IMG/VR virus record: IMGVR_UViG_3300037346_000623
Coordinates: 32,001-96,000 of that record
Strand: one strand, 5' to 3'
Source of the DNA: a virus
Length of the DNA: 64,000 nucleotides
The translations under genes were made by a program, and so were the position numbers. The notes beneath the pieces are model-generated. The model made no database searches and had not been told where the DNA came from. It saw only the letters and a program-made list of their open reading frames with translations. Every line of letters starts with the position of its first letter. Within the stretch, counting starts at the first letter, position 1. Shown here in pieces: positions 18,947 through 63,736 of this stretch.

Positions 18947-21900
18947 TTATACAAATTGCATAAATCCTCCAGCAGCTATTCCCCCTGTTTTTGTAACGGT
19001 AATTCTATTAATGAATTTATGTATACCTCTAGCAGGTTCTATTATAACGTCAATTATACCCATATTCATATCTATAATAGCTGGTGTATTATTAGAAGAA
19101 TCCATTATTGTTTGATAAGCATAGATACCACCGCCTGATCTAACACCATCAAGATAATTATCAACAAGAGTTTTAATCTCCAATCTTATAGAGTCCTCAT
19201 TAAAATCAAAAAGATAGTTTGCAAGTATTTCCTGTACGTCATTTTCTATACTGATTAATAAATCTCTAACGTGTACTAGATTGAATGCTGAATTTACTTG
19301 TTGGTAAGCAGTTTGATTACCAAATATGACAACACCAATACCTCTTCTTTTAAGAATTGGGTTGATACCGAAAGGTTCAAGGTTTGCTCTATCCTCGTCA
19401 GTAAAATCATATTCAACACCAACTATATTACCACCACTTAATATACCTCTTTTTTGACCAGCAACAATAGCATAAGGTTCTCCATTTGCAAATTTTCTAA
19501 TAAAATTATTAGATACGTATGCAGCTGGTGGAACGTTTATATTTTTATTACCATTTCTTACAACTATATAAGGTGAATAGAATGCACAGAATTTAGATCC
19601 ATCCTCTTCATTAGGCAAACTAAATGTATATGTAGGATTAAGAGATAGATTACCTCCCTCTACTATATAGGATGTATTTAATGGCGGATAAGGATTCGAA
19701 GCAGTAGGAGCATCGGTAAACGATGGATCAGTACTAGCTCTAAATTGAGCCATCGAAGGAGCATTTATAATAGCTAAAGCCTGTTGTCTCATTTTTGCAA
19801 GTTTACTAAATTCCCATTTAGATTCAGGTCCTATTATACCGCTGAAAGTATCCACAATATATCTGAATGATATAACATCCTTAGAGGCAAGAGTTTTTGC
19901 GATATTAGTATCATAAAGAACAGCCAATATTTCCTGTAATCTTGCATCGGTTCCGTTTGGTCTATGTCTTTCTTTCATAATAAACCCATTAAGGAATGTA
20001 AAATCAAAAGAATTAGTAAATTGAGCTATAGATTTAAACTTCTGTACTCTAAGTGAGCTACCGCTATTAGAATAATATAAAACTGGTCTCGCAGTAACAA
20101 CTTTTAGAACCCCATAGGTTCCAGTTTGTGCAACAGATTTAACCTTAGTAAGTCTACTTTGTCTGTTACCTGTAGCAGGTTCACATATATCAAGATCAGT
20201 AGAAACTACCCAATCACCAACAGCTAAAGGAGAAACCCCATTCACTATATTTATATTAAACGTTGTAACGTCTATCTGTGTACATTCTATGAAATCATTT
20301 ATCGAACCTATTTGAGATATAATATCAATTTTTTGTGGACTAACAGGAAGACCTATATTATTTGATGCATAGGATGTTCCAAATGCAGCAATATTAACTA
20401 TTGTATTGGTATTCATTGAAGCCTGTTGAGAATAAGCTCTAGCATAAGTAAGATTAAACTGATCTCTATCAATAGTATTTTCAAATCCAATATATTGTTG
20501 ATTTGGTGTACCTGTAGACGTTATCCAAATAGAATCTCCATCCTCAATTTCAAGATATTTATGATTTTGAAAGAATGCTGATGTATTATAAGCAACAATA
20601 GAATCAGTATATCCATTTGGTGCAAAAGGACCAGTAGCACCATCCATTGTAACTAGGCTTATTATATCAAAATAATCAGAATCACCAAATTGGTAAGAGT
20701 CATTATAATAAGGCTTATTACTACCAGAAGCACCAGTATTATAAGTTGATAAATTGTAAGTAGGCTTAACTGTAATTCCTTGAGATCTATACTGTGCATT
20801 ATCCAATGGGTGTGTCCACCATATAAGTAATTGCCCATTAACGTCTTTAGTACCAGTAACTTTAAGTTTAACTATATCAGCCTCGTTAAATTGACTAACA
20901 AGTGATCCTGTTAATCCAGCAACTCCGCTAACAACACCAAGTATAAACTTTTCGTCATTAGATGATGAAACATTAAGGAATGATTTAAGAGCAGCTCTTT
21001 GTCCTGCATTTTGTAGCATACCCCCAGTTGATCCAGTAGCTGCACTTGTTAAAAGATAATGCATACCAGTATCATAAGCATTAGAATCATAAGGAACAAA
21101 CGATCCCTGATAAACACCAGCAGTAGATCCAGTTATAGTAAATAACGTACCTACCTTAGAACCACTAGTAAATCCAGTAATCCCAGCAGGACTAACAAAT
21201 CCAGTAGCTCCAGTTATACCAACAACGTTCTGTGTATATAAATAATCAGCTTCCAATGCCTGATCATAGCTTAAGAAATTTATTCTTGGATTAGCAAGGT
21301 CTCTGTCTCCACTAAGTTCATCTATAAGGTGATTACCAACAAGATCTATTTTGGAAGGATTGTTACAAATATCATCAAAAGCTTGCTCATCTATTGCACA
21401 GAATAGACCAGTAGAAGCAGTATTGTTATTTATTAATGTTTGTATATATTGATTTACACCGTTCAAATCAACAAAGTCAGGTATGATACATCCAGTAACG
21501 GATGTAACTATAGAAACATTTGGATTAGCAAGGAATTGATCTATTTTCGATTTTATAAACCCATTATTACTAAAGTATGTACTCCACATTGGGTCAAGAT
21601 TTAATGCTTGATAATTTGTCCAATTACCATAAACTGCAATAACATCTATAAAATAGTCACTTATATAATCATACGGATGCATAAACGTAGGAACATTATT
21701 AGCACCATACCAATCAATAGCAAATATATTATACCCTAACAGTGGGCTAGATGAATCAGTTGATTTTCTAACTATTATACTCATAGGTGATTTTCCAAGA
21801 TTAGTTACATTTAACAATTTACCCTGATCTGGAATACTTAAAGTTGCAAGAAAATAATTAGGATCCGCAAACCAAAATCTCTCCTTATTGTAATACGAAG

Positions 21901-22294
21901 AGTATAATTCACTAGTAACCACACCATTATATTCCTCAGTATCCACAGAGAATGATCTATATGTAACCTTATCAGGGTCCGCTGATTCGAGATTATCGTT
22001 CAGTTTTAAGAGATTTAATGCAAATACTGGGCCTGCATTTAAACACGTTAATATTGATCTATGAAAGAAAGATCCTTTATTTTCGAGTGACGCGTCGATA
22101 TCACCAAAGATTGATATCATCGTTGTTGCATCAGGAATATAGACAGGTGTATTAAAAGGTCCTTTATTAGAGAAACCTATAACAAGTCTAATTGTTTGTG
22201 ATGTAAGTATGACGTTTTGTGATGCGTCAAATTCAAGCGTATAGACACCAGATGCTCTAAATTGAGAATAGTCTATTTTTACCTTATTTGCCAT
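18947..22294 (-). CDS. Tail sheath protein (gp18-like)
   Basis: SGVYTLEFD, KGPFNTPV, VPPAAYV, AGQKRG, GINPI, IFGNQT, VHVRDLLI, DFNEDSIR. Confidence 0.9.
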   Translation of the reverse strand: MANKVKIDYSQFRASGVYTLEFDASQNVILTSQTIRLVIGFSNKGPFNTPVYIPDATTMISIFGDIDASLENKGSFFHRSILTCLNAGPVFALNLLKLNDNLESADPDKVTYRSFSVDTEEYNGVVTSELYSSYYNKERFWFADPNYFLATLSIPDQGKLLNVTNLGKSPMSIIVRKSTDSSSPLLGYNIFAIDWYGANNVPTFMHPYDYISDYFIDVIAVYGNWTNYQALNLDPMWSTYFSNNGFIKSKIDQFLANPNVSIVTSVTGCIIPDFVDLNGVNQYIQTLINNNTASTGLFCAIDEQAFDDICNNPSKIDLVGNHLIDELSGDRDLANPRINFLSYDQALEADYLYTQNVVGITGATGFVSPAGITGFTSGSKVGTLFTITGSTAGVYQGSFVPYDSNAYDTGMHYLLTSAATGSTGGMLQNAGQRAALKSFLNVSSSNDEKFILGVVSGVAGLTGSLVSQFNEADIVKLKVTGTKDVNGQLLIWWTHPLDNAQYRSQGITVKPTYNLSTYNTGASGSNKPYYNDSYQFGDSDYFDIISLVTMDGATGPFAPNGYTDSIVAYNTSAFFQNHKYLEIEDGDSIWITSTGTPNQQYIGFENTIDRDQFNLTYARAYSQQASMNTNTIVNIAAFGTSYASNNIGLPVSPQKIDIISQIGSINDFIECTQIDVTTFNINIVNGVSPLAVGDWVVSTDLDICEPATGNRQSRLTKVKSVAQTGTYGVLKVVTARPVLYYSNSGSSLRVQKFKSIAQFTNSFDFTFLNGFIMKERHRPNGTDARLQEILAVLYDTNIAKTLASKDVISFRYIVDTFSGIIGPESKWEFSKLAKMRQQALAIINAPSMAQFRASTDPSFTDAPTASNPYPPLNTSYIVEGGNLSLNPTYTFSLPNEEDGSKFCAFYSPYIVVRNGNKNINVPPAAYVSNNFIRKFANGEPYAIVAGQKRGILSGGNIVGVEYDFTDEDRANLEPFGINPILKRRGIGVVIFGNQTAYQQVNSAFNLVHVRDLLISIENDVQEILANYLFDFNEDSIRLEIKTLVDNYLDGVRSGGGIYAYQTIMDSSNNTPAIIDMNMGIIDVIIEPARGIHKFINRITVTKTGGIAAGGFMQFV

Positions 22295-47045: not shown

Positions 47046-49139
47046 CTATTTCTTTTTTGTTGTCACCCTGACTTTTACTGGTGGCTGTATTCCACCATCC
47101 TTGGGTTTGTCAAATGATAAAGTTATCGTATCACCTTCTGATATTTTTGTTTGTACCATTAAATCCGCTAGTGTGTCCTCTATATACTTCTGTATTATTC
47201 TCTTTAATGGTCTAGCTCCAAATTTTGGATTAAATCCATCCTCACATATCTTTTCTTTAAGATCCTGTGAAACCTTTATTTTATAGCCAAGTGATTCTAT
47301 TCTTGACAGGGTTTTTGTTAATTCAACATCAAGAATATCAAGCATGTTTTCCTTACCAAGTTCCTTAAAGTAAATAATATCATCCAATCTATTTATGAAT
47401 TCAGGTGAGAATTTTTTTTCAAGCTCTTTTTTAAGAAGTGCTTCATTTTCGAATTCTTTATTTGCTGATTTTGCCGATGTTATAAATCCACTACTTGTAC
47501 CAAACTCTGATAATTTTCTTTGTCCGACATTTGATGTTAGAATAATTAGTGTATTTTTAAAATTTATTTTTCTTCCCTGTCCATCTGTTAAATGACCCTC
47601 GTCCAATATTTGTAAAAGAGTATTAAATATCTCCGGGTGTGCCTTTTCGATCTCGTCGAATAATACAATTGAATATGGTTTTCTTCTGACCTTTTCTGTT
47701 AATTGCCCACCGTCCTCGTGACCAACATATCCTGGGGGTGCACCAAACATTTTGGTTGCATCAAACTTTTCACCATATTCACTCATGTCGATTCTTATTA
47801 ATGAATCGCTTTCGCCAAACATATGTTTAGCAAGTTCCTTCGCTAATTGGGTTTTACCAACCCCAGTAGGACCAAGAAAAAGAAACGTTCCTATTGGCTT
47901 ATTTGGATCCTTTATTCCCATTCTATTTCTTAAAACTGCTCTTGATACTTTTTCTATTGCATCATCTTGCCCAATAACTCTGCCTTTAAGATCAGTACTC
48001 ATATTAGCAAGCTTAAAGTTTTCGTCCTGATTTACTTTTTTAAGTGGTACACCTGACATCATAGCTACTACCTCAGCAACCCTTTCCCCGTCAACAGTTT
48101 TCTTTTTACCTTTAAACTTTGCCTCCCAAAGTTTTATTTCTGATTCAAGTGACACCTCTGTATGTCTTTGTAGATCTCTATATTTTGCTGCTCCCTCGTA
48201 ATCTTGCTTTTTAACTGCAAGACTCTTATCGATTGCTATTTGTGATAGATTTTTTTCCAGCCTTGTTATTGTCTCCGGTACTTTAACGTCGTTTAGCTGG
48301 GTTCTACTGCCTGCTTCGTCTAATGCATCTAAAGCCTTATCCGGGAAGTTACGATCTGTTATATAGCGTTCTGTGAGCTTTACGCAATTGATTATGGCAT
48401 CATCCGTGTACTTTACGTTGTGATGATCCTCATATTTGGATTTTACGCTGTTTAAAATTTCTATTGTTGTTTCTATATCCGGTGGATTTACAAGTACCTT
48501 CTGAAATCTTCTCTCTAGTGCACCATCTTTCTCAATATGTTGACGATATTCATTAAGTGTTGTTGCACCGATGCATTGTATCTCCCCTCTAGCTAATGCA
48601 GGCTTAAACATATTCGATGCATCAAGTGATCCTGATGATCCGCCTGCACCAATAATAGTATGTAGCTCGTCGATAAAAATAATAATGTCTCTATTCTTTT
48701 TAAGCTCATCTATAATCGCTTTAATTCTCTCCTCGAACTGTCCTCTATATTTAGTTCCGGCTACTAGTGAACCCATATCTAGGGTTAGAATTCTTTTGTT
48801 CAGTAGGGTTTGAGAAACCTTTCTCTGAACTATTTTTAGAGCTAATCCCTCAGCTATTGCTGATTTACCAACACCTGGTTCCCCTATGAGAACCGGATTA
48901 TTTTTTTTCCTCCTTGAAAGTATTTGTGATATTCTTTCAATCTCTGGATCCCTGCCTATAATAGGATCGAGTTCCCCTCTTGATGCCATATCTGTTAGAT
49001 CGGTGGAATGTGAGTCCAGTATTGGTGTTTTATCTGTACCTTTTTTAGACTTATATTCGCTTTGGTAATCCTCATCTCCTCCTCCTGTGTATTGGTCCAT
49101 TGACGGTGAGATTTTCTTTTTGTAGTCTTCTTTTTTCAT
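47046..49139 (-). CDS. ClpC-like AAA+ chaperone lacking the N-terminal Clp repeat domain
   Basis: LDPIIGR, RRKKNNP, GEPGVGKS, UVR-like QDYEGAAKYRD, GPTGVGKT, RIDMSEY, FGARPL. Confidence 0.9.
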   Translation of the reverse strand: MKKEDYKKKISPSMDQYTGGGDEDYQSEYKSKKGTDKTPILDSHSTDLTDMASRGELDPIIGRDPEIERISQILSRRKKNNPVLIGEPGVGKSAIAEGLALKIVQRKVSQTLLNKRILTLDMGSLVAGTKYRGQFEERIKAIIDELKKNRDIIIFIDELHTIIGAGGSSGSLDASNMFKPALARGEIQCIGATTLNEYRQHIEKDGALERRFQKVLVNPPDIETTIEILNSVKSKYEDHHNVKYTDDAIINCVKLTERYITDRNFPDKALDALDEAGSRTQLNDVKVPETITRLEKNLSQIAIDKSLAVKKQDYEGAAKYRDLQRHTEVSLESEIKLWEAKFKGKKKTVDGERVAEVVAMMSGVPLKKVNQDENFKLANMSTDLKGRVIGQDDAIEKVSRAVLRNRMGIKDPNKPIGTFLFLGPTGVGKTQLAKELAKHMFGESDSLIRIDMSEYGEKFDATKMFGAPPGYVGHEDGGQLTEKVRRKPYSIVLFDEIEKAHPEIFNTLLQILDEGHLTDGQGRKINFKNTLIILTSNVGQRKLSEFGTSSGFITSAKSANKEFENEALLKKELEKKFSPEFINRLDDIIYFKELGKENMLDILDVELTKTLSRIESLGYKIKVSQDLKEKICEDGFNPKFGARPLKRIIQKYIEDTLADLMVQTKISEGDTITLSFDKPKDGGIQPPVKVRVTTKKK

Positions 49140-54989: not shown

Positions 54990-54999
54990 ATATTTATTG

Positions 55000-55071
55000 T
55001 AGCCCGTAGGGGAGTCGAACCCCTCTTTCCAGGATGAAAACCTGACGATCTAACCGATAGTCGAACGGGCC
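55000..55071 (-). tRNA. tRNA-Glu(TTC)
   Basis: GGCCCGT/ACGGGCT acceptor, TCAGG-TTTTCAT-CCTGG, GGTTCGACTCC. Confidence 0.9.
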
Positions 55072-55339
55072 GGTTAAGAAATAATGATGGAGTACCCATT
55101 TCGCTCCATTCTTAAGTGCTTCCTCAGTTTTACTGTGCACAGGCACTGTCCTTTGCAGGGGGTGATGAATTTCTTAATCTGTTCATGATGTCGACATCAA
55201 TGTGCAGGAAATCCCATTATTTCTAGATTCCTATTTTATTGCCAGTTCTTGATGCTTTTCTGTATTTAGATAAGCTGTTCTATTGTTTCTGTAAGTCTAT
55301 TCGCTATAAATAGCGGACTGTTTGGAATAAAATAAAATG

Positions 55340-55413
55340 TGGTCCCTGTAGGGCTTGAACCTACGACCCCCTGATTATGAGTCAGGTGCTCTAACCAACT
55401 GAGCTAAGAGACC
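55340..55413 (-). tRNA. tRNA-Ile2/Met(CAT)
   Basis: GGTCTCT/AGGGACC acceptor, CCTGA-CTCATAA-TCAGG; body resembles bacterial Ile2. Confidence 0.85.
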
Positions 55414-55665
55414 GATAATTAAAAAAAGAAATACCCAAACCACTTTCACATCCCTTTACTCTTTGGTTTACCAGTCTTGCGAACTGTGCTGGTCTAATCT
55501 CATTTCTGTGATTAAAGCGGTCTATTGCGTCAGGGTATGGCAACCAATAGGCTTGAACCTCTCCAAAAATATTTCTTTTTAATTCTTTATGTTAATGAAC
55601 GTTGTTTCTTTGTTTATTATTATATTGCAAAAGTATGATATTCTTTCGGGATAAAAAAATTATTT

Positions 55666-56319
55666 TTAATATTTTTTTGAATTTTTTATTCTTCCTCTTT
55701 TCCATCACTTCACTATTTCTGTGTTGTTGCTAATCTTTTTTTCCGTTAATTCATTATTTACCCAAATTGTTTCAAATTGTGAATTTTTTTCTCCTAATCA
55801 GTGTCACTTTTTGGAATCTTTCATATTATAAATAGTTTCCTGTGTATGATTTCTTCCTAGAAATGTTTTTTTATCATATCTATCGAATTATACTGATTCG
55901 TGTCTTTTCAACATTGATTTGGATGCTACAATTCTCAACTTTCCTTTAAAATCTTTATCTGATTTTAATTTTCTTTGTAATCCATCACTTCCAGATTTTT
56001 GCCAAATTAATTTATTGGTTTCTGTGCATCCACCTCCGCCTCCTGGCTGTAGATTCATACACATCGGATTGCTTAGAAGATTTTCGTTAGCTATTTCAGT
56101 CTCTTTGTTTTTTAGAGATTCCCTATCATCAAAATATTCCAATATTTCCTTGGCGTATAAATCCTTACCGTGTTTTCTTATAGAATTTCTAATTCTTTTC
56201 CCACTACCAAAATATACATCTTCGAGATTATCCGTCGAGTTCATACCTATATAATATTTACCATTCTTTGTGTTGGCTATCTTATAGATATAATGAAATT
56301 GTTTTTCTTTTCTTGCCAT
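55666..56319 (-). pseudogene. Decayed GIY-YIG (Seg-like) homing endonuclease with NUMOD3-type tail
   Basis: YIYKI...KYYIG...YFGSG. The same frame continues past TAA 55888: FLGRNHTQET..KK*H*LGEKNSQF...*WKRGR to TAA 55666. Confidence 0.85.
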
Positions 56320-56373
56320 TTCTATACTTTAATTTAGATTATATAATTAAATTAAAGTACGAAATCGCGCCGC

Positions 56374-56445
56374 CGGAACATCGGGATTCGAACCCGATTC
56401 GCACGCCGTGACAGGGCGGCATCCTTCGCCAGTGGACCTTGCTCC
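56374..56445 (-). tRNA. tRNA-Asp(GTC)
   Basis: GGAGCA/TGTTCC acceptor, CGCC-CTGTCAC-GGCG, GGTTCGAATCC. Confidence 0.8.
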
Positions 56446-56455
56446 GTTTATTTTG

Positions 56456-56545
56456 CGGAGGATGAGGGGCTCGAACCCTCGCGACCTATCACTAGATCCT
56501 ATCTGTTTAGCAAACAGACCTCTTCACCAACTTGAGTAACCCTCC
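56456..56545 (-). tRNA. tRNA-Ser(GCT)
   Basis: GGAGGGT/ATCCTCC-G, TCTGT-TTGCTAA-ACAGA, long variable arm. Confidence 0.9.
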
Positions 56546-56552
56546 TTTTCTG

Positions 56553-56637
56553 TACTCCTAGCCAGACTCGAACTGGCACGCCCCTTCCGGGACACAAGAT
56601 TTTAAGTCTTGGGTGTCTACCATTCCACCATAGGAGC
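56553..56637 (-). tRNA. tRNA-Leu(TAA)
   Basis: GCTCCTA/TAGGAGT-A, CAAGA-CTTAAAA-TCTTG, long variable arm. Confidence 0.9.
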
Positions 56638-56645
56638 ATTTTTTG

Positions 56646-56720
56646 GGTGACTGATGGGGTTTGAACCCATGACCTCCTGAACCACAATCAGGCGTTCTAA
56701 CCAGCTGAACTACAGCCACC
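56646..56720 (-). tRNA. tRNA-His(GTG)
   Basis: G-1 GTGGCTG/CAGTCAC-C, CCTGA-TTGTGGT-TCAGG. Confidence 0.9.
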
Positions 56721-56775: not shown

Positions 56776-57213
56776 CTATTTGCTTGATTCTATAAATTCT
56801 CTTTCAGTTACTTTTTTTATTGGTGTAAATAAAGCGAATCCATCGTCGTCTTCGAAGTGATTACATTTATCGATGAAATAGTTATTCATCTTAAATCTCC
56901 AATACTCGAAGACGTTCATAGCTTCATTCCATCTCCCAATTTTACCTCTTCTATGATCGCCGAGATAGAAAGCTCCATCTTCAAGTTCATTCTTAGGTAT
57001 TGCACCAGCTTTGATGAGTCTCGGTATATAATATTCAAGATATTCTTTTTCACAAACCCTAGGTATTTCTGGTACATCTTGAGGTGTTTTGAAAGGTTTA
57101 AGATTGTCCCATCTTTTTCTTCTAATTTCCTCAAAATTTCTTCGATCGATTTCTCTTTTTTCTTCAAGGAACCTTTTGATTTTTTCAATTTTTTCAATTT
57201 TTTCTTGTTCCAT
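56776..57213 (-). CDS. Hypothetical protein inside the tRNA array
   Basis: 145-aa ORF with GAIPK.EL.DG..Y.G..R and HFEDDDGF.LF.P motifs. Confidence 0.65.
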   Translation of the reverse strand: MEQEKIEKIEKIKRFLEEKREIDRRNFEEIRRKRWDNLKPFKTPQDVPEIPRVCEKEYLEYYIPRLIKAGAIPKNELEDGAFYLGDHRRGKIGRWNEAMNVFEYWRFKMNNYFIDKCNHFEDDDGFALFTPIKKVTEREFIESSK

Positions 57214-57232
57214 GATTGCTAATTTTTATTAG

Positions 57233-57315
57233 AGGTGCCTGTCAGATTCGAACTGACGCGAGATTTCTCTAGTGGTTTTGCAGACCACCCCTTTCAGCCA
57301 CTCAGGCAAGGCACC
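57233..57315 (-). tRNA. tRNA-Cys(GCA) with long variable arm
   Basis: GGTGCCT/AGGCACC-T, GTGGT-CTGCAAA-ACCAC, 14-nt variable region TAGAGAAATCTCGC. Confidence 0.85.
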
Positions 57316-57329
57316 ATGATTTATTTCCC

Positions 57330-57430
57330 TTTGTATTTCTACCGTTTCCTTTATTAGCACCTTTATATATGGGTAACTAAGTATTCAAATTTGTACAAAT
57401 CAATCTAAAATTACTTTTTGTATTATTTAT
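57330..57430 (-). pseudogene. Remnant of an HNH endonuclease C-terminus
   Basis: Translates NNTKSNFRLICTNLNT*LPIYKGANKGNGR, like the NN...NLRLLCPNCHSQ.PTYK..N.G.GR end of phage HNH proteins. Confidence 0.55.
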
Positions 57431-57460
57431 GGATTACTTATAACCATATTTGAACATTAG

Positions 57461-57533
57461 ATCCCAGAATCGGACTCGAACCGATAACTTCTAATTTACA
57501 AAATTAGTGCTCTGCCAATTGAGCTATCCGGGA
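57461..57533 (-). tRNA. tRNA-Thr(TGT)
   Basis: TCCCGGA/TCTGGGA, CTAAT-TTTGTAA-ATTAG, canonical D and T loops; unusual U1-A72. Confidence 0.8.
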
Positions 57534-57541
57534 ATATTTTG

Positions 57542-57627
57542 AGGAGAGAGGGAGGATCGAACTCCATGCAGTTACCCGCACCCGATGCTTTCCAGGCATG
57601 ACCTATCACCGTTTAGAATCACTCTCC
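57542..57627 (-). tRNA. tRNA-Ser(GGA)
   Basis: GGAGAG/CTCTCC, ATGC-CTGGAAA-GCAT, variable arm GTGCGG-GTAA-CTGCAT. Confidence 0.75.
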
Positions 57628-57741
57628 ATTGAGGGCTGACATATAGAATCCTTCCTATTTTCTGCGGTATAGGTACCATCATGGGCTCCGTTGACTGATT
57701 CGTCTTTATAACCCCATACGGAACAAGCAGGGTAACCAAAG

Positions 57742-57829
57742 CGGAGAGGGTGGGATTCGAACCCACGGGAGTAATGAGCTCACACTAGATTTCAAGTCTA
57801 GGCGCTTTTGACCACTTGCGCACCTCTCC
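57742..57829 (-). tRNA. tRNA-Ser(TGA)
   Basis: GGAGAGG/CCTCTCC-G, CTAGA-CTTGAAA-TCTAG, long variable region. Confidence 0.9.
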
Positions 57830-57860
57830 AATTTACTTTTACAATATTTCAATGAACAAT

Positions 57861-57893
57861 AAAAAAGGCCTCCTTTTTCGAGGAGACCTTTTT
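57861..57893 (-). terminator. Attenuator-type terminator in front of the tRNA array
   Basis: AGGTCTCCT-CGAAAA-AGGAGGCCT plus T-tract. The 5' arm TCTCCTC can alternatively pair with GAGGAGA at 57926-57932. Confidence 0.8.
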
Positions 57894-57916
57894 GATATTT
57901 ATTATGTTACTTAATA

Positions 57917-58009
57917 TCAATACTCTCTCCTCATTACAATAGACGATTCACAAGTTGAACTCGTGTGATCTAAATGTAATGTATCTAATATGTATTGTAT
58001 TTGTGACAT
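57917..58009 (-). CDS. 30-aa leader peptide MSQIQYILDTLHLDHTSSTCESSIVMRREY (putative attenuator leader)
   Basis: ATG 58009 preceded by A-rich AAATAAAAACA; TGA 57917; lies between the promoters (58030, 58060) and the terminator. Confidence 0.7.
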   Translation of the reverse strand: MSQIQYILDTLHLDHTSSTCESSIVMRREY

Positions 58010-58107
58010 TGTTTTTATTTTTATAGATTTATATATCTAATTGATTTTAATATTTTATGCAAATTTAAGGAAATGTTTCGAATAAAAAAAATTATTTTCA
58101 ATTTTTT

Positions 58108-59598
58108 TTAAATAAATTCAAAATTTCTGAAAGATTCTAAATAATCTAGACTATAGTTTTCCTTTAATTCCTTAATTTTCTTTGAATCTTTATCCCCTAC
58201 AATAGCAGGAACTGAATTGATTGTTTTTAACCCAACAGATACAGCTTTTGGAAATGGTCCCATAAGACCAGCTGAAGATAATTTATCAATTGTTTTTGAT
58301 ACTTTTGGGTATTCATCTGCTAAATCACCTATGAAATCTATCATTGGCTGAGCTATTGGTTTTATGTAAGTTTCTACTAATTTCTTAATAACTTCTAAAG
58401 CAGGTCCTAAGAAAGACTTAAGCGCATTAGCTATTATTTTAGCTGCAGGTGTAACTGCAGATTTTATGAAATTTGATATTGCTTTCGAGAATTTTTCGGG
58501 AAGTGATATAAGGAATTGAAACAATTCTGATATTTTCCCGCCAGCATAAATTATACCGTCAAATACCTTACCTAAAAGACCTTCACAGACCATCAGAAAT
58601 ATTATTGATATTGTTGTAGCTGCAAGAGCAGATCCACCTGACCCCATTATCGCACCGATGCTCTTTGCTGAATTTGTTCCCATTTTACCAACTAGTTTTG
58701 ATGCACCATGTGCTAGGAAATGCTCTGTGCCATGAGCAAATTGACCAGCGAATGTACCTGCCCATTTTTCGGAAGCTTTAAGTGCCGTTGTACTTGATGC
58801 TGCTATACCGGGTATCGCTGCTTTTGGTGCCATTATAACGTCATTTAGGCCTAATAATATAGAACATGAACCAGCTATTACTAATGGTGCTCCTGTGGCT
58901 AGACTTTTTTTAGCCTTTTCTAGTTTTTCCATTTCCATATCTGATAAATATGACCATGCTTTTTTCATTTTATATACGCCTATACCTGTCTCAATTGCAC
59001 CGGCTATTCCTAGTAGTACTGGCCCTAATATCTGACCAGCTGCTGGTATTAATGGGGTAACTGCTGCTGTCATCTGTAGTACTATTGCTACAGTTGTCCA
59101 AAAATTGGAACTAGTTGTTATTTCCTTTATGGCAGATACTATTCTTTTTGTAAATTTCCAAACCCTTTTTGCACCATCTGATATGCTATTCCATATATTT
59201 GCACTCTTGGATTTAACTAAATCTACTGCTGATTTAGCATTAGATTTAACTTTATCCCAAGCTGCTTCCATATCATCAATCATTCCTTCATTTATCGCTT
59301 GCATCGTATAATTATCTATTATAAATGCAGAACCATTTTTAAATAAAACTGTTCCTATATCGCTCTCAAGCATCAATATCTTCTCATCATCGTTGAACCA
59401 GTCTTTCTTATTCTCATAAAGCATTCCCAATTCATACATAGCATACGATTTTTCCAATAGCATCTCCTCCGATTCGGATTCAAATATCTTAGATTCAAAC
59501 ATATTAGAAAATTCTGTCAATGTTAGTTTCACCATTATGTCTTCACTTAACTTTCCAAAATTGCTTGATGAAAGAAATCCATCATATTTATTAATCAT
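58108..59598 (-). CDS. Hypothetical protein with extended hydrophobic/amphipathic helices (possible ejected membrane-interacting virion protein)
   Basis: 496 aa; acidic N-terminus with I/L-x-E sites; Gly/Ala-rich hydrophobic middle. Confidence 0.6.
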   Translation of the reverse strand: MINKYDGFLSSSNFGKLSEDIMVKLTLTEFSNMFESKIFESESEEMLLEKSYAMYELGMLYENKKDWFNDDEKILMLESDIGTVLFKNGSAFIIDNYTMQAINEGMIDDMEAAWDKVKSNAKSAVDLVKSKSANIWNSISDGAKRVWKFTKRIVSAIKEITTSSNFWTTVAIVLQMTAAVTPLIPAAGQILGPVLLGIAGAIETGIGVYKMKKAWSYLSDMEMEKLEKAKKSLATGAPLVIAGSCSILLGLNDVIMAPKAAIPGIAASSTTALKASEKWAGTFAGQFAHGTEHFLAHGASKLVGKMGTNSAKSIGAIMGSGGSALAATTISIIFLMVCEGLLGKVFDGIIYAGGKISELFQFLISLPEKFSKAISNFIKSAVTPAAKIIANALKSFLGPALEVIKKLVETYIKPIAQPMIDFIGDLADEYPKVSKTIDKLSSAGLMGPFPKAVSVGLKTINSVPAIVGDKDSKKIKELKENYSLDYLESFRNFEFI

Positions 59599-59681: not shown

Positions 59682-61262
59682 TTAGATAATAATGGCTTCA
59701 ATTTCTCTTAAAATCGCTTTTGGATCAATCTCAGCTTTTTTAATCATCTCATAGATATCAGCAGAGTAACCAAAAAGTTGAACTAATTTGCTACCTGGTT
59801 TGAACATGGTTGTACCATATCCTTGAATATCTACTGTGTAGATGAAAGGCTCACCGTGTGCAGATTTGTAAGATTGGAAAGAACTGTTTGTAACGATTCT
59901 ATCACCACCTTGTAAATCTGATATGATGAAGATACGATCATATTTACCGCTTGTCTGTAAGGTTGAGAAGATTGAACCGAAGTCTGTACCGTGGCCAACT
60001 CTACCCTGTAAGCTTAAACATGTATTTTTTATTGTATTGATACTATCACCTGGGTTATATCTAATACCTTCGGCTGTTGATGCGAATTGATATAAATCAG
60101 CACCGATTCCTTTTGCTAATGTTGCTCCAATAAGAGCAGCTTTATCAATACAGTGTTTGTTTATAGATTTGCCGTTCATCGTAACACCATGTCCCATTCC
60201 GTGCATAGATCCGGATGTATCAATAACAACCGCTGTTCTACCATGCGAGAATAATTCAACTAAGTTTGGTATTGCTAATTCGTAAGCCCTATTCAGGGCA
60301 GTAACAAATGGTCTAGACGCAGAAGCACTAGTTTCTTGTAAAAGAATCTCCAAAGCAATATCTATTTGGTGAGGAAAAACCAAGGATTTCCTGATCAATT
60401 TCTCATCGATTAAAAGCTCACATGCACCGCTAACTAATTCAGAATTTGAACTTGTGTTTATGATGTTTCTTAAATTACGAAGCAATGCCAGGTAACCAAT
60501 TTTTCTGGTTTTAATCAATTCAGCATAGTTGCTTTCTTTAGTCTGTGTCAATTCAACCTCAGCTTGTGCTTTAGTGATTTCCCCAGATTTAACTTTTGCA
60601 GCAACATCTTGACCAGCTTTCGAGTTTTTATCCTCAACCGTATTGAACTGTTTTAATTTACCGGTCATAAGGTCCTTGAAAACCACTTCCATTTGTGGAG
60701 TTGTTGGCTTTGGACGAACCAGGTTAACAACATCAACAAGTGAAACTGCTTTTCCTTTACCTTGATATTTAGCTAATTCGTACGCATCTGCTGATTCTAA
60801 AGCTGCTTTGAAACCTTTCTTCATCGAATTAGGTAATGGCTTACCTGGGTTGAAGTGTTGATAAGCTGCGATAATCTCTAATACGTCATCTAAACGGTAT
60901 ATGATACCACCGGTTTTAGTATTCTTGTCTCTTTTGGAGAAGAATCTTCTGCCTATGGCAGAGCCAGATAGATGTTTAACTAATGATACGGATCCGAAGT
61001 GTGTTACCGATCTCTGACCAACAACTGTTCTAGCGTACACTAGGGCTTTAGCGACGAACTCTATATCTTTCTTGGATAATTCATCAATAAGTTGAATAAA
61101 TCTATTCTCTCTATCTGATAATTTTTCATAGTATGAATTGTCCAATCCAGTGGTAAGAATTGCGATTAATTCCAATTTTGGATCATACTTCACACCTGTT
61201 CCACCTTGGTGGTTTGTAACTGTCTCTACAGTTCTTTTTACTTTTTGATTGTAACGTGACAT
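59682..61262 (-). CDS. rsr: TROVE-domain Ro60/Rsr-like RNA-binding protein with C-terminal vWA domain
   Basis: TNHQGG, SYYE, ALVYAR, YELAKY, LVDVVNLVRPKP, GYLALLRNLRNI, VFPHQI, vWA MIDAS DTSGSM, GTD, IISD.Q. Confidence 0.9.
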   Translation of the reverse strand: MSRYNQKVKRTVETVTNHQGGTGVKYDPKLELIAILTTGLDNSYYEKLSDRENRFIQLIDELSKKDIEFVAKALVYARTVVGQRSVTHFGSVSLVKHLSGSAIGRRFFSKRDKNTKTGGIIYRLDDVLEIIAAYQHFNPGKPLPNSMKKGFKAALESADAYELAKYQGKGKAVSLVDVVNLVRPKPTTPQMEVVFKDLMTGKLKQFNTVEDKNSKAGQDVAAKVKSGEITKAQAEVELTQTKESNYAELIKTRKIGYLALLRNLRNIINTSSNSELVSGACELLIDEKLIRKSLVFPHQIDIALEILLQETSASASRPFVTALNRAYELAIPNLVELFSHGRTAVVIDTSGSMHGMGHGVTMNGKSINKHCIDKAALIGATLAKGIGADLYQFASTAEGIRYNPGDSINTIKNTCLSLQGRVGHGTDFGSIFSTLQTSGKYDRIFIISDLQGGDRIVTNSSFQSYKSAHGEPFIYTVDIQGYGTTMFKPGSKLVQLFGYSADIYEMIKKAEIDPKAILREIEAIII

Positions 61263-63223: not shown

Positions 63224-63389
63224 AACGTTCTTAGAGATATTGGGAAGAGAATGCTTAGAAAGGGATGCTAATAGTTTTTGCGGGAGTTGAACCCGCGACC
63301 TTAAATATTAAAAATTTACGCCCTACCAACTGGGCTAAAAAACGAAGTAACCTTTCAATTTACCACTAACCAATATTTCTAAGAACGTT
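63224..63389 (-). ncRNA. Y-RNA-like RNA D: unpermuted tRNA mimic (TTA loop) extended from the acceptor stem
   Basis: GTTTTT/AAAAAC, GCCC D-stem, TAAAT-TTTTAAT-ATTTA, GCGGG-TTCAACT-CCCGC; long outer stem AACGTTCTTAGA.ATATTGG/CCAATAT.TCTAAGAACGTT. Confidence 0.78.
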
Positions 63390-63393
63390 TTTG

Positions 63394-63470
63394 TTGGATG
63401 AATGGGAATCGAACCCACATGTGACCAGTTAACCTTTCTATCGCGTATCAGGCGAAGGGTATATCATCCA
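63394..63470 (-). ncRNA. Atypical tRNA-like RNA (GAT loop, no canonical D-arm)
   Basis: TGGATGA/TCATCCA acceptor, GTGGG-TTCGATT-CCCAT T-arm, TCGC-CTGATAC-GCGA hairpin. Confidence 0.55.
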
Positions 63471-63551: not shown

Positions 63552-63736
63552 TATTAAATTAATTCACCAAGCCTACCATCTACAAGTAGCAACAAATGTG
63601 ATAATCCTTTCGTTGACTAGCGCTATACGCAAAGTTGCAACTAATCAGGCACTTAGATGACGCCTTCCTTTCTCACGTATTAAGGTTACACTTCAGAAAT
63701 TTACCTCTACGGTCACTTGGTGAATTATTTTTTTAT

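What the first reader, a model, noticed from the sequence alone, without database searches (positions are those of the whole stretch)
57840..58070. Leader-peptide attenuator whose codons mirror the downstream phage tRNA array (tRNA-demand sensor)
Seen: promoters (TAAATTTG at 58060, GATATATA at 58030), then a 30-codon ORF (58009-57917), a strong terminator (57861-57893), a boxA-like site and the tRNA array. Codons 8-23 read TTA GAT ACA TTA CAT TTA GAT CAC ACG AGT TCA ACT TGT GAA TCG TCT (LDTLHLDHTSSTCESS). The eight tRNAs that follow are Ser-TGA, Ser-GGA, Thr-TGT, Cys-GCA, His-GTG, Leu-TAA, Ser-GCT and Asp-GTC. Every one has a cognate codon in this run, including all three Ser isoacceptors, and 15 of the 16 codons specify these amino acids. 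The exception, GAA, matches tRNA-Glu(TTC) at 55000. The end of the leader (GAGGAGA...TTGATATT) can pair with AATATCAA...TCTCCTC and sequester the 5' arm of the terminator. Established: this is the geometry of trp/his-type ribosome-mediated attenuation. Inference: if host tRNAs are depleted or cleaved (for example by anticodon-nuclease defences), the ribosome stalls in the sensor run, the antiterminator forms and the phage transcribes its replacement tRNAs. I know of no described multi-tRNA attenuator controlling a phage tRNA operon.
Basis: partly seen in the sequence, partly recalled or inferred. Interest (0 to 1): 0.95.

Follow-up and report, generated by a model that had tools for sequence, protein, structure and literature searches.

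The report
Leader-peptide attenuator gating phage tRNA genes
A giant lake phage places a tiny test gene, spelled in the codons that the following tRNA genes read, plus a switchable transcription stop in front of those tRNA genes, so it probably makes them only when ribosomes read those codons slowly, a trp-operon-style control I could not find published for tRNA genes.

Summary
A Bacteroidota-type promoter, a 30-codon ORF (58009-57917, minus strand), an intrinsic terminator (57893-57862) and a competing antiterminator hairpin lie 32 nt upstream of a tRNA array. Codons 8-23 give 15 of 16 matches to the eight following tRNAs. That is the single best of about 234,530 six-frame windows in the 117-kb contig.

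The decisive new result is a second copy in the same genome, outside the window. It has the same promoter and 5' UTR but a different 42-codon ORF, rich in P, W, Q, K, Y, N, F, G, M and V. It has its own terminator and antiterminator and precedes the tRNAs for exactly those amino acids. The leader-by-array cross-test gives Fisher p=5.7e-5.

Both ORFs stay intact in 7 and 11 distinct relatives, with no indels inside them. Leader 1 shows only synonymous third-position changes. A ribosome-footprint model lets the antiterminator form only while the ribosome is within the matched codons.

Weaknesses:
- No compensatory covariation; all relatives are close.
- Equilibrium folding always favours the terminator.
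- There is no ribosome or transcript-end data.

This scan has noted the same design in other phage genomes. I partly re-checked one, phiCbK. Five literature searches found no description. Verdict: new variant of leader-peptide attenuation, confidence about 0.65.

The parts
58060..58090 (-). Promoter: T-rich/CGAAAC upstream element (58090-58075) and the -7 box TAAATTTG (58067-58060)
   Evidence: Read. The pattern CGAAA-N6-16-TAnnTTTG occurs 5 times on the minus strand of the contig and before tRNA units in G001 and G002. It is invariant in 7 of 7 leader-1 sequences. The match to the Bacteroidota TAnnTTTG consensus is recalled, not tested.
58010..58059 (-). 5' UTR with a conserved element (...AAAATATTAAAATCAATTAGATATATAAATCTATAA), including the short palindrome TTAGAT..ATCTA (58040-58023), followed by an A-rich run before the ATG
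   Evidence: The element is identical in both leader modules of the genome and in relatives. It forms a small hairpin in the MFE folds. Its role is unknown; it could be an operator, an RNA element or a translation-initiation region.
57917..58009 (-). Leader ORF, 30 codons plus TGA
   Evidence: It is intact in 7 of 7 distinct sequences. Its 4 variable columns of 93 are all third-position and synonymous, against 42 variable of 201 columns outside the ORF. The exact peptide is on record on 12 contigs.
57941..57988 (-). Sensor run, codons 8-23 (L D T L H L D H T S S T C E S S)
   Evidence: 15 of 16 codons are cognate to the 8 following tRNAs and all 8 are represented. This is the unique genome-wide maximum. 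The 16th codon, GAA, matches tRNA-Glu at 54999-55071.
57913..57932 (-). Region 2: 5' arm of the antiterminator (GAGGAGA 57932-57926, ATTGATATT 57921-13). It overlaps codons 26-30 and the stop codon.
   Evidence: Invariant in 7 of 7 sequences.
57880..57899 (-). Region 3: pairs either with region 2 (AATATCAA 57899-92, TCTCCTC 57886-80) or with region 4 as the 5' arm of the terminator
   Evidence: The loop between regions 2 and 3 varies and carries indels, while both arms are conserved.
57861..57893 (-). Intrinsic terminator hairpin plus T run
   Evidence: 13 pairs, loop 6; -17.8 kcal/mol, z -5.5. The G.U pair becomes A-U in 4 of 7 relatives.
57741..57829 (-). tRNA-Ser(tga), first gene of the array, 32 nt after the T run
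57542..57628 (-). tRNA-Ser(gga), below threshold in the window
   Evidence: 37.4 bits. ARAGORN calls the orthologues Ser(gga).
57460..57533 (-). tRNA-Thr(tgt)
57232..57315 (-). tRNA-Cys(gca)
56372..56719 (-). tRNA-His(gtg), Leu(taa), Ser(gct) and Asp(gtc)
55615..55659 (-). Internal promoter of the same type, ahead of tRNA-Met and tRNA-Glu
   Evidence: genome 87659. Conserved in G001 and G002.
54999..55413 (-). tRNA-Met(cat) 55339-55413 and tRNA-Glu(ttc) 54999-55071

Best explanation
This is a ribosome-mediated (leader-peptide) transcription attenuator placed in front of a block of phage tRNA genes.

Proposed mechanism. Transcription starts at the TAAATTTG promoter. A ribosome loads on the A-rich leader and translates the 30-codon ORF close behind RNA polymerase.
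- If it runs through to codon 24 or beyond, or to the stop codon, it covers region 2. Region 3 is then free to pair with region 4, the terminator forms, and transcription stops 32 nt before tRNA-Ser.
- If it is slowed anywhere in codons 8-23, region 2 stays free and pairs with region 3 as soon as region 3 emerges. The terminator cannot form and polymerase reads into the tRNA genes. Codons 8-23 are read by the tRNAs encoded downstream.

Because the products are the very tRNAs the leader needs, the circuit is a negative-feedback gauge of decoding capacity for those codons. A second module with a different codon set gates a second tRNA block in the same way.

Shown: the sequence anatomy, the codon/tRNA correspondence in two modules, conservation of both ORFs and both stems, and the geometry in a footprint model.

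Inferred: translation of the leader, stalling, a kinetic choice between the two hairpins, and the physiological trigger (scarce or damaged host tRNAs).
For: 1) Anatomy.

2) Codon match. 15 of 16 codons match; this is the only such window of about 234,530, where 0.002 are expected. Over the whole ORF, 15 of 29 codons match against a background of 0.230, p=7e-4.

3) Independent replicate in the same genome (genome 101,603-101,475, outside the window).
- It has the same promoter and UTR.
- Its ORF is MKTTFRNIVKPFMPQSIAPFNQVGIAKWYNGYSKGSGGHDII.
- Its terminator is ACTCCGGATCTTAAAAGATCTGGAG followed by T9.
- Codons 35-38 repeat the terminator's 3' arm.
- The following tRNAs are Pro, Trp, Gln, Lys, Tyr, Asn, Phe, Asn, Gly, Gly, Met, Val.
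- 25 of 41 codons are cognate against a background of 0.408 (p=0.007).
- 11 of 11 tRNA kinds are represented.
- The cross-table [[17,5],[6,24]] gives Fisher p=5.7e-5.
- Windows that cover all kinds and reach the observed count number 18 of 234,352 for leader 1 and 36 of 234,280 for leader 2.

4) Coding-type conservation.
- There are no indels and no stops in 7 of 7 leader-1 ORFs or 11 of 11 leader-2 ORFs, while indels do occur in the hairpin loops and spacers.
- Leader 1 has 4 variable columns, all synonymous third positions. ACG>ACA and TCA>TCG each stay with the same tRNA.
- Leader 2 has 13 variable columns at position 3 against 7 and 7 at positions 1 and 2.
- At cognate positions of leader 2, the replacements K>N, P>Q and Y>K go to other amino acids of the same array.

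5) Geometry. In the nascent transcript the antiterminator has probability 0.88 (leader 1) and 0.98 (leader 2).
- Leader 1: with a ribosome footprint it is 0.99 for A-site codons 7-22, 0.70 at codon 23 and 0 from codon 24. That is exactly where the matched run ends.
- Leader 2: it stays high to codon 31 and is about 0 from codon 33.

6) The terminator lies between the only recognisable promoter and the first tRNA, 32 nt away, so tRNA expression requires read-through.

7) A contig from an RNA library (X19 record 2, 436 nt) runs from leader codon 9 across the terminator into both Ser tRNAs. This is weak evidence, because DNA carry-over is not excluded.

8) phiCbK has three mini-ORF/terminator/tRNA units. 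One is strongly matched: gp083, 23 of 44 residues P/K/L/S against 0.238, p=4e-5.
Against: - No compensatory base-pair changes. The antiterminator and terminator of leader 2 are paired in 98.2% and 96.7% of cells, but only one-sided changes occur, and the shuffles do as well.
- All relatives are close (leader-2 peptides at least 74% identical), so part of the conservation may reflect recent common descent.
- At equilibrium the terminator dominates (P>=0.79) wherever the ribosome is masked. The switch must therefore be kinetic, which I cannot test.
- Without any ribosome, the nascent RNA is predicted to form the antiterminator. An untranslated leader would then read through, and a trp-like 1:2 pairing appears only in full-length MFE folds.
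- The correspondence is imperfect. Leader 2 carries Ile x5, Thr x2 and Ser x3 with no tRNA in its array. It also keeps GCA and GCC although no Ala tRNA is found in this genome's array; G001 and G002 do have Ala-tgc there.
- Against only the three tRNAs that precede the internal promoter (Pro, Trp, Gln), leader 2 has 5 of 41 cognate codons, p=0.09.
- Internal promoters ahead of Lys..Val and Met, Glu mean that part of each 'mirrored' set is not controlled by the leader alone.
- For whole-ORF windows a coding region near genome 62.8 kb scores as high as leader 1, and a site near 1.9 kb ties leader 2.
- In phiCbK one of three mini-ORFs shows no enrichment (3 of 19, p=0.48) and one is marginal (12 of 31, p=0.08).
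- There is no ribosome-profiling or transcript-end evidence.
Confidence: 0.65

Rival explanations
1. The terminator is controlled by a phage or host protein, giving temporal or antitermination control. The factor would recognise the 5'-UTR element that both modules share. The short ORFs would be incidental, or would only couple translation to transcription without sensing particular tRNAs.
For: The roughly 36-nt UTR element with its small palindrome is identical in both modules and nearly invariant in all relatives, although the ORFs differ completely. TTAGAT recurs three times in the leader-1 region. Other tRNA units of the same genome use the same promoter type without a leader.
Against: It does not explain why each ORF is enriched in, and covers every kind of, the tRNAs behind it. 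It also does not explain why the ORFs stay free of indels, why leader 1 changes only synonymously, or why the matched run ends where a ribosome would begin to occlude region 2. It could co-exist with attenuation.
Confidence: 0.13
2. The ORFs are ordinary small phage genes, or untranslated spacers, each ending with its own terminator. The tRNAs would be made by constitutive leak-through, and the codon resemblance would be coincidence helped by local repeats (TTAGATaCA / TTAGATCACA) and post-hoc choice of window.
For:
- A direct repeat reduces the number of independent codons.
- Another coding region scores as high for the whole-ORF measure.
- Gene callers list both peptides only as hypothetical proteins.
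- There is no covariation.
Against: - The second module was examined after the hypothesis was fixed, and it also matches its own, different array (Fisher p=5.7e-5).
- Both ORF 3' ends duplicate the terminator's 3' arm.
- Replacements in leader 2 tolerate amino-acid change but stay within the array's set, and its C-terminal third varies while base pairing is kept. That is unlike a folded functional peptide.
- Neither ORF has homologues below 74% identity.
Confidence: 0.12
3. The leader is translated and does control termination, but it reports general translation capacity or amino-acid supply (any slowing of ribosomes, for example host shut-off or starvation) rather than the availability of the specific tRNAs.
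For: In the footprint model any delay before codon 24 allows the antiterminator. Charged-tRNA level depends on amino acids and synthetases as well as on tRNA.
Against: A general sensor needs no codon matching, yet two modules are matched to different arrays. The codon choices also point to specific tRNAs. All three Leu codons are TTA. The Val codons are GTA and GTG, and CCG appears twice although it is 0.40% of gene codons.
Confidence: 0.07

Closest known systems
Multivalent leader-peptide attenuators of enterobacterial amino-acid operons (ilvGMEDA leader: Ile/Leu/Val; thr leader: Thr/Ile; also trpL, hisL, pheL) - recalled knowledge
   Same: Promoter, short ORF enriched in regulatory codons, mutually exclusive antiterminator and terminator hairpins that share one strand, and a ribosome position that decides between them. 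Several amino acids are sensed by one leader.
   Different: The regulated genes are tRNA genes, not biosynthetic enzymes, so the products act directly on the sensor. There are 8-11 different tRNA species per leader rather than runs of one to three amino acids. The setting is a phage with Bacteroidota-type promoters. A trp-like 1:2 pause or anti-antiterminator is not established. Rfam Phe_leader and Thr_leader models hit only at 29 and 26 bits against a gathering score of 55, over the terminator part.
pheST attenuator (pheM leader) controlling phenylalanyl-tRNA synthetase in E. coli - recalled knowledge
   Same: Leader-peptide attenuation applied to a component of the translation apparatus that serves the sensed codon.
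   Different: It has a single amino acid, a protein product and a cellular gene.
T-box riboswitches - recalled knowledge
   Same: A terminator/antiterminator decision that reports the state of a specific tRNA.
   Different: T-boxes bind uncharged tRNA directly through a specifier codon and the T-box sequence, without translation. No Rfam T-box match was found in the window or in the leader region. Here there is a conserved ORF instead.
Anabaena sp. PCC 7120 trn operon (a long tRNA array induced under translational stress), PMC8421152 and PMC10272220
   Same: An accessory tRNA array that is normally off and is switched on when translation is impaired, with homing endonucleases among the tRNA genes.
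   Different: By the title and abstract in the search listing, control there is by the transcriptional repressor TrcR. Word searches of both texts found 0 occurrences of 'leader', 'attenuat' or 'terminator'. I did not read the papers in full.
Drug-inducible ribosome-stalling attenuators (for example vmlR in Bacillus subtilis, PMC9226507; seen in the search listing only)
   Same: A ribosome stalled in a short leader ORF promotes read-through of a downstream terminator.
   Different: The stall there is caused by an antibiotic acting on the ribosome, not by codon-specific tRNA supply.

Membership tests
Leader-peptide (ribosome-mediated) transcription attenuator | Short ORF in the transcribed leader, between the promoter and the regulated genes | tested here: met
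   The ORF is intact in 7 of 7 and 11 of 11 distinct relatives.
Leader-peptide (ribosome-mediated) transcription attenuator | Leader enriched in codons whose decoding depends on the regulated products | tested here: met
   15 of 16 codons, the unique genome maximum. The second module has 25 of 41 cognate codons and 11 of 11 tRNA kinds. Fisher p=5.7e-5.
Leader-peptide (ribosome-mediated) transcription attenuator | Intrinsic terminator between the leader ORF and the regulated genes | tested here: met
Leader-peptide (ribosome-mediated) transcription attenuator | Antiterminator that shares a strand with the terminator and whose other strand is occluded by a ribosome finishing the ORF | tested here: met
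   Met in silico only.
Leader-peptide (ribosome-mediated) transcription attenuator | Evolutionary support (covariation) for the alternative helices | tested here: inconclusive
   The helices are 98.2% and 96.7% paired but show no two-sided changes, and the shuffles do as well. Loops vary while arms are conserved.
Leader-peptide (ribosome-mediated) transcription attenuator | Pause or anti-antiterminator (1:2) pairing, as in trp | tested here: inconclusive
   It appears in full-length MFE folds but not in nascent-transcript folds.
Leader-peptide (ribosome-mediated) transcription attenuator | Leader is translated, and stalling at regulatory codons raises read-through | not testable with these tools
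   Only contigs from RNA libraries were available. They bridge the terminator but cannot show ends, strand or ribosomes.
T-box riboswitch | Match to the T-box covariance model (specifier loop, T-box bulge) | tested here: not met
   No T-box hit at the gathering threshold in the window, nor at E<=10 in 57300-58150.
   The post-terminator spacer is conserved among leader-1 orthologues, but it is unrelated in sequence to that of the second module. No consensus for this host group was available to me.

The most novel reading that the evidence does not exclude
tRNA-rich phages of unrelated lineages would gate each tRNA block with a codon-matched leader-peptide attenuator. Examples are this 430-kb-class lake phage with Bacteroidota-type promoters, phiCbK of Caulobacter, and others flagged by this scan. 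These would form a general, unrecognised class of tRNA-pool homeostat. The phage would measure, codon by codon, whether the infected cell can still decode its genes, and would switch on exactly the replacement tRNAs that are short. This would include cases where host defences such as anticodon nucleases, or host shut-off, deplete them.
Probability: 0.4. Interest if true: 0.9.

Novelty: new variant of a known kind. Interest (0 to 1): 0.82.

Why it matters
Why phages carry tRNA genes, and how those genes are controlled, is an open question. Codon-usage compensation and escape from tRNA-targeting defences are the competing ideas.

A leader whose codons are read by the tRNAs it gates would show that the phage regulates tRNA output by measured decoding demand. 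It would also extend a textbook mechanism, leader-peptide attenuation, to RNA genes and to 8-11 tRNA species at once.

The idea becomes directly testable. The same layout is present in the cultured phiCbK/Caulobacter system, where start-codon, sensor-codon and hairpin mutants can be made.

Practically, the rule 'mini-ORF spells the array' would help annotate phage regulatory regions. It also offers compact, codon-specific sensors of translation for synthetic biology.

Tried and rejected
- GenBank phage search with 3.4 kb around the locus. 357 records matched, but only over single tRNAs (about 3% of the query), and 0 records covered 80% or more. There is no annotated relative.
- L002, a 31%-identical relative of the neighbouring 496-aa protein, carries no tRNA in 12.9 kb, so it is uninformative.
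- L004 and L030 matched the UTR pattern by chance, with no leader or tRNAs, and were dropped. Of 9 metagenome loci, 8 were kept.
- Equilibrium folding with a masked ribosome gave no switching. I replaced it with a nascent-transcript model.
- Pair counting gave no covariation. I did not run it on alignment A1, because only one stem column varies there.
- The search for homologous proteins with leader 2 returned 9 of 9 candidates, all 42 aa and 74-90% identical. There are no distant homologues, so an orthologue-level test of leader/array covariation was not possible. Leader 1 was not searched this way.
- The third tRNA unit has a promoter at window 63967, a 57-aa ORF, then Arg-acg and others. 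I considered this ORF as a third leader and rejected it. Its Arg codons are AGA and AGG, not CGN, and no terminator follows it (read by eye).
- Ala tRNA in this genome's second array: none was found by Rfam at E<=1.
- Rfam found nothing for the structured spacers 63555-63735 and 55400-55680.
- Sequencing runs. Only Logan contigs were available, so no transcript ends, strand or levels can be read. RNA-library contigs of two studies stop near 57982-57985, inside the ORF. One has an 8-letter loose end, and unitigs break at strain variants, so I draw nothing from this. Stretches without cover in the RNA runs (57300-57537 and beyond 58116) are not interpreted. Runs with small shares that I did not lay (X3-X18, X22-X24) are not used for habitat.
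- Literature. Five full-text searches found no description of leader-peptide control of tRNA genes. Subscription journals and supplementary files were not searchable.
- Not used: structure prediction, fold search, complex prediction, the protein-atlas search and the search of protein representatives.
Full report
WHAT IS THERE

The window is bases 32,001-96,000 of a 117,265-bp phage contig with 33% G+C. Nearly all long ORFs lie on the minus strand and read well under table 11. ARAGORN finds 27 tRNA genes between 87 and 103 kb of the contig. Two complete relatives of 430 and 434 kb with terminal repeats (G001, G002) show that the contig is probably a fragment of a giant phage.

On the minus strand the finding's region reads, in order:
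- a T-rich/CGAAAC element and the box TAAATTTG (58067-58060);
- a 50-nt A-rich leader;
- the ORF 58009-57917, MSQIQYILDTLHLDHTSSTCESSIVMRREY*;
- a hairpin, GAGGAGA..ATTGATATT / AATATCAA..TCTCCTC;
- a terminator at 57893-57862 with a T run;
- 32 nt later, tRNA-Ser(tga).

ARAGORN and Rfam confirm Ser-tga, Thr-tgt, Cys-gca, His-gtg, Leu-taa, Ser-gct and Asp-gtc, then Met-cat and Glu-ttc. ARAGORN calls its orthologue Ser(gga) in four relatives.

IS THE CODON MATCH MORE THAN CHANCE?

The chance of 15 or more matches in 16 is 9.5e-9 per window, so 0.002 such windows are expected in about 234,530 six-frame windows. In the real contig the leader window is the only one with 15, and it contains all eight tRNA kinds. 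The two windows with 14 overlap it, and the best independent window has 13.

Two cautions apply. The window length and tRNA set were chosen after the fact. A direct repeat (TTAGATaCA / TTAGATCACA) also lowers the number of independent codons.

With a whole-ORF measure (30 codons, ten tRNAs including Met and Glu), 18 of 234,352 windows both cover all kinds and reach the observed count. Of the 12 best listed, 11 lie in a coding region near 62.8 kb and one is the leader. By that measure the leader is extreme but not unique.

AN INDEPENDENT REPLICATE

When I read the sequence upstream of the other tRNA blocks, I found a second module at genome 101,690-101,400. This is outside the window.
- It has the same promoter form and an identical 5'-UTR element.
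- It has a different ORF of 42 codons, MKTTFRNIVKPFMPQSIAPFNQVGIAKWYNGYSKGSGGHDII*.
- It has its own terminator, ACTCCGGATCTTAAAAGATCTGGAG followed by T9.
- The tRNAs that follow are Pro-tgg, Trp, Gln-ttg, then Lys, Tyr, Asn, Phe, Asn, Gly-gcc, Gly-tcc, Met and Val-tac.
- Codons 35-38 (GGATCTGGAG) repeat the terminator's 3' arm, so they can pair with its 5' arm. This is the same design as in leader 1.

Under strict wobble rules 25 of its 41 codons are cognate to that array, against a background of 0.408 (p=0.007). All 11 tRNA kinds are represented.

Leader 1 has 18 of 29 codons cognate to its own ten tRNAs and only 6 cognate to the other array. With Met excluded, the 2x2 table [[17,5],[6,24]] gives Fisher p=5.7e-5.

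Windows of 42 codons that cover all 11 kinds with at least 26 matches number 36 of 234,280. Leader 2 ties for the top score with a site near 1.9 kb. Against only the three tRNAs that precede an internal promoter (Pro, Trp, Gln) the match is 5 of 41, p=0.09.

RELATIVES

A search with the neighbouring 496-aa protein found one close relative (L001, 92% identity). The shared UTR motif found four further viral contigs and eight usable metagenome loci.

This gives 7 distinct leader-1 regions (alignment A1) and 11 distinct leader-2 regions (A2).
- No ORF has an indel or an internal stop. Indels do occur in the antiterminator loop, the terminator loop and the spacers.
- Leader 1 has 4 variable columns of 93, all third-position and synonymous (CAA/CAG, ACG/ACA, TCA/TCG, GTA/GTG). 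Outside the ORF 42 of 201 columns vary.
- Leader 2 has 27 variable columns of 129 (13 at position 3, 7 and 7 at positions 1 and 2), against 87 of 227 outside the ORF.
- At cognate positions of leader 2, the replacements K>N, P>Q and Y>K stay within the array's amino acids, while K>R and N>I leave it.
- Variation in leader 2 concentrates in codons 32-42, where base pairing with region 3 is nevertheless kept: 98.2% of cells are paired.
- There are no two-sided compensatory changes in either helix.
- The protein search found no leader-2 homologue below 74% identity.

The tRNA sets behind each leader are the same in all relatives, so an orthologue-level covariation test is not possible. One discordance stands out. 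G001 and G002 have Ala-tgc in the second array. All leader-2 copies carry GCA and GCC, but this genome has no detectable Ala tRNA there.

HOW IT WOULD WORK

Folding the nascent transcript up to the end of region 3 gives the antiterminator with probability 0.88 for leader 1 and 0.98 for leader 2. I then removed the RNA up to 15 nt past the P site of a ribosome.
- Leader 1: the antiterminator stays at 0.99 for A-site codons 7-22, falls to 0.70 at codon 23 and is 0 from codon 24. That is exactly the end of the matched run.
- Leader 2: it stays high to codon 31 and is about 0 from codon 33.

A ribosome that keeps pace with polymerase and reaches the end of the ORF therefore blocks the antiterminator and allows termination. 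A ribosome delayed within the matched codons allows read-through.

Two results limit this picture. Equilibrium folds of the full transcript always favour the terminator (P>=0.79), so the choice would have to be kinetic, as I recall it is for trp. A pairing between the start of the ORF and region 2 appears only in full-length MFE folds, so I leave it open.

No recognisable promoter lies in the 32 nt between the terminator and the first tRNA, so these tRNAs can only be made by read-through. Internal promoters of the same type stand before Met-Glu (window 55659) and before Lys..Val. Those genes therefore have a second input.

EXPRESSION

Only assembled contigs of public runs were available. In one RNA library a 436-nt contig runs from leader codon 9 through the terminator into both Ser tRNAs. 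Two other RNA libraries hold shorter pieces of the leader-terminator-tRNA stretch. The tool warns that DNA can be present in such libraries, so this is only compatible with read-through transcripts.

A DNA contig of a relative (X2 record 9) spans the whole region. Nearly all of its listed differences lie in the spacer between the two Ser tRNAs, and none of those listed lie in the ORF. 16 further differences were not shown.

COMPARISON WITH WHAT IS KNOWN

Rfam gives no T-box or leader family at threshold. The Phe and Thr leader models score 29 and 26 bits against a gathering score of 55 over the terminator part. Functionally the closest systems are the multivalent ilvGMEDA and thr leaders and the pheST attenuator (recalled). 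The differences are the target (tRNA genes), the breadth (8-11 tRNA species per leader) and the phage setting.

Five full-text searches found no account of leader-peptide control of tRNA genes. The nearest paper found concerns the stress-induced tRNA operon of Anabaena. By its abstract it is controlled by the repressor TrcR. Neither that text nor the companion paper contains the words leader, attenuat- or terminator.

EARLIER NOTES OF THIS SCAN

A word search of the scan's own notes listed eight earlier reports of the same design in other phage genomes. These are AI notes, and I do not count them as evidence.

I tested one lead myself. In phiCbK (JX100813) the annotated terminators at 48120, 49745 and 51465 each sit between a mini-ORF and a tRNA block. 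The background is the amino-acid composition of 35 annotated CDS.
- gp083 has 23 of 44 residues in P/K/L/S, matching its Pro-Lys-Leu-Ser block (p=4e-5).
- The ORF before Phe-Val-Ile-Gln-Gly has 12 of 31 (p=0.08).
- The ORF before Glu-Asp has 3 of 19 (p=0.48).
- All amino-acid kinds of each block are present in its ORF.

That is partial support, and it offers a cultured system for experiments.

VERDICT

The best explanation is a codon-matched leader-peptide attenuator that gates phage tRNA genes, with confidence about 0.65. It is a new variant of a known mechanism. Translation of the leader, stalling and regulated read-through remain to be shown.

Noticed in passing
window 59682-61262 (-) and 63555-63735 (-): A Ro60/TROVE-like protein (PHROG 850, E=1e-32; Pfam TROVE, E=8e-10) lies about 2 kb from a 181-nt non-coding stretch that folds into a long closed stem (-48.8 kcal/mol, z -3.55), just before tRNA-Arg(acg). 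This could be a Y-RNA-like partner. Rfam gives no hit.
   Followed up: partly
window 63271-63345 (-): ARAGORN calls a tRNA with anticodon tta, which would read the stop codon TAA. Genes read well under table 11. In G001 and G002 the same tRNA block holds Arg-acg, Ile-gat and Gln-ttg (plus Lys-ctt in G002). A weak tRNA-like hit (29.6 bits) sits beside it at 63394-63470.
   Followed up: partly
genome 101,690-101,400 (window coordinate about 69,400-69,690, outside the window; locus L032:5373-5709): Second leader-peptide module with the same promoter and UTR, a 42-codon ORF and its own terminator, ahead of the Pro-Trp-Gln-Lys-Tyr-Asn-Phe-Gly-Met-Val tRNAs.
   Followed up: yes
window 55888-56319 (-) and 56776-57213 (-): Protein genes sit inside the tRNA array. 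One is a GIY-YIG/SegE-like homing endonuclease (PHROG 314, E=3e-29). The other is a 145-aa protein of PHROG 18490 (unknown function). Relatives differ in which ORFs are inserted between the same tRNAs.
   Followed up: partly
window 55414-55600 (-): About 180 nt of G+C-richer non-coding sequence lies between the internal promoter and tRNA-Met. There is no ORF longer than 11 codons and no Rfam hit. It may be another small RNA.
   Followed up: partly
whole contig; handles G001, G002: Complete relatives are 430,120 and 434,509 bp with direct terminal repeats, so the 117-kb contig is probably a fragment of a giant phage. Its genes include a ClpB-like double AAA+ protein (window 47046-49139) and a very long tail-sheath protein (18947-22294).
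   Followed up: no
L034 (phiCbK JX100813: 48081-48166, 49540-49769, 51341-51502): A cultured Caulobacter phage shows the same mini-ORF / annotated terminator / tRNA-block layout three times. gp083 is strongly enriched in the amino acids of its block.
   Followed up: partly
L027 (metagenome locus), downstream of leader 1: ARAGORN places the first Ser(tga) 1,061 nt after the UTR motif, instead of about 210 nt, although a tRNA-like 5' end follows the terminator directly. The first tRNA gene may be interrupted by an insertion.
   Followed up: no
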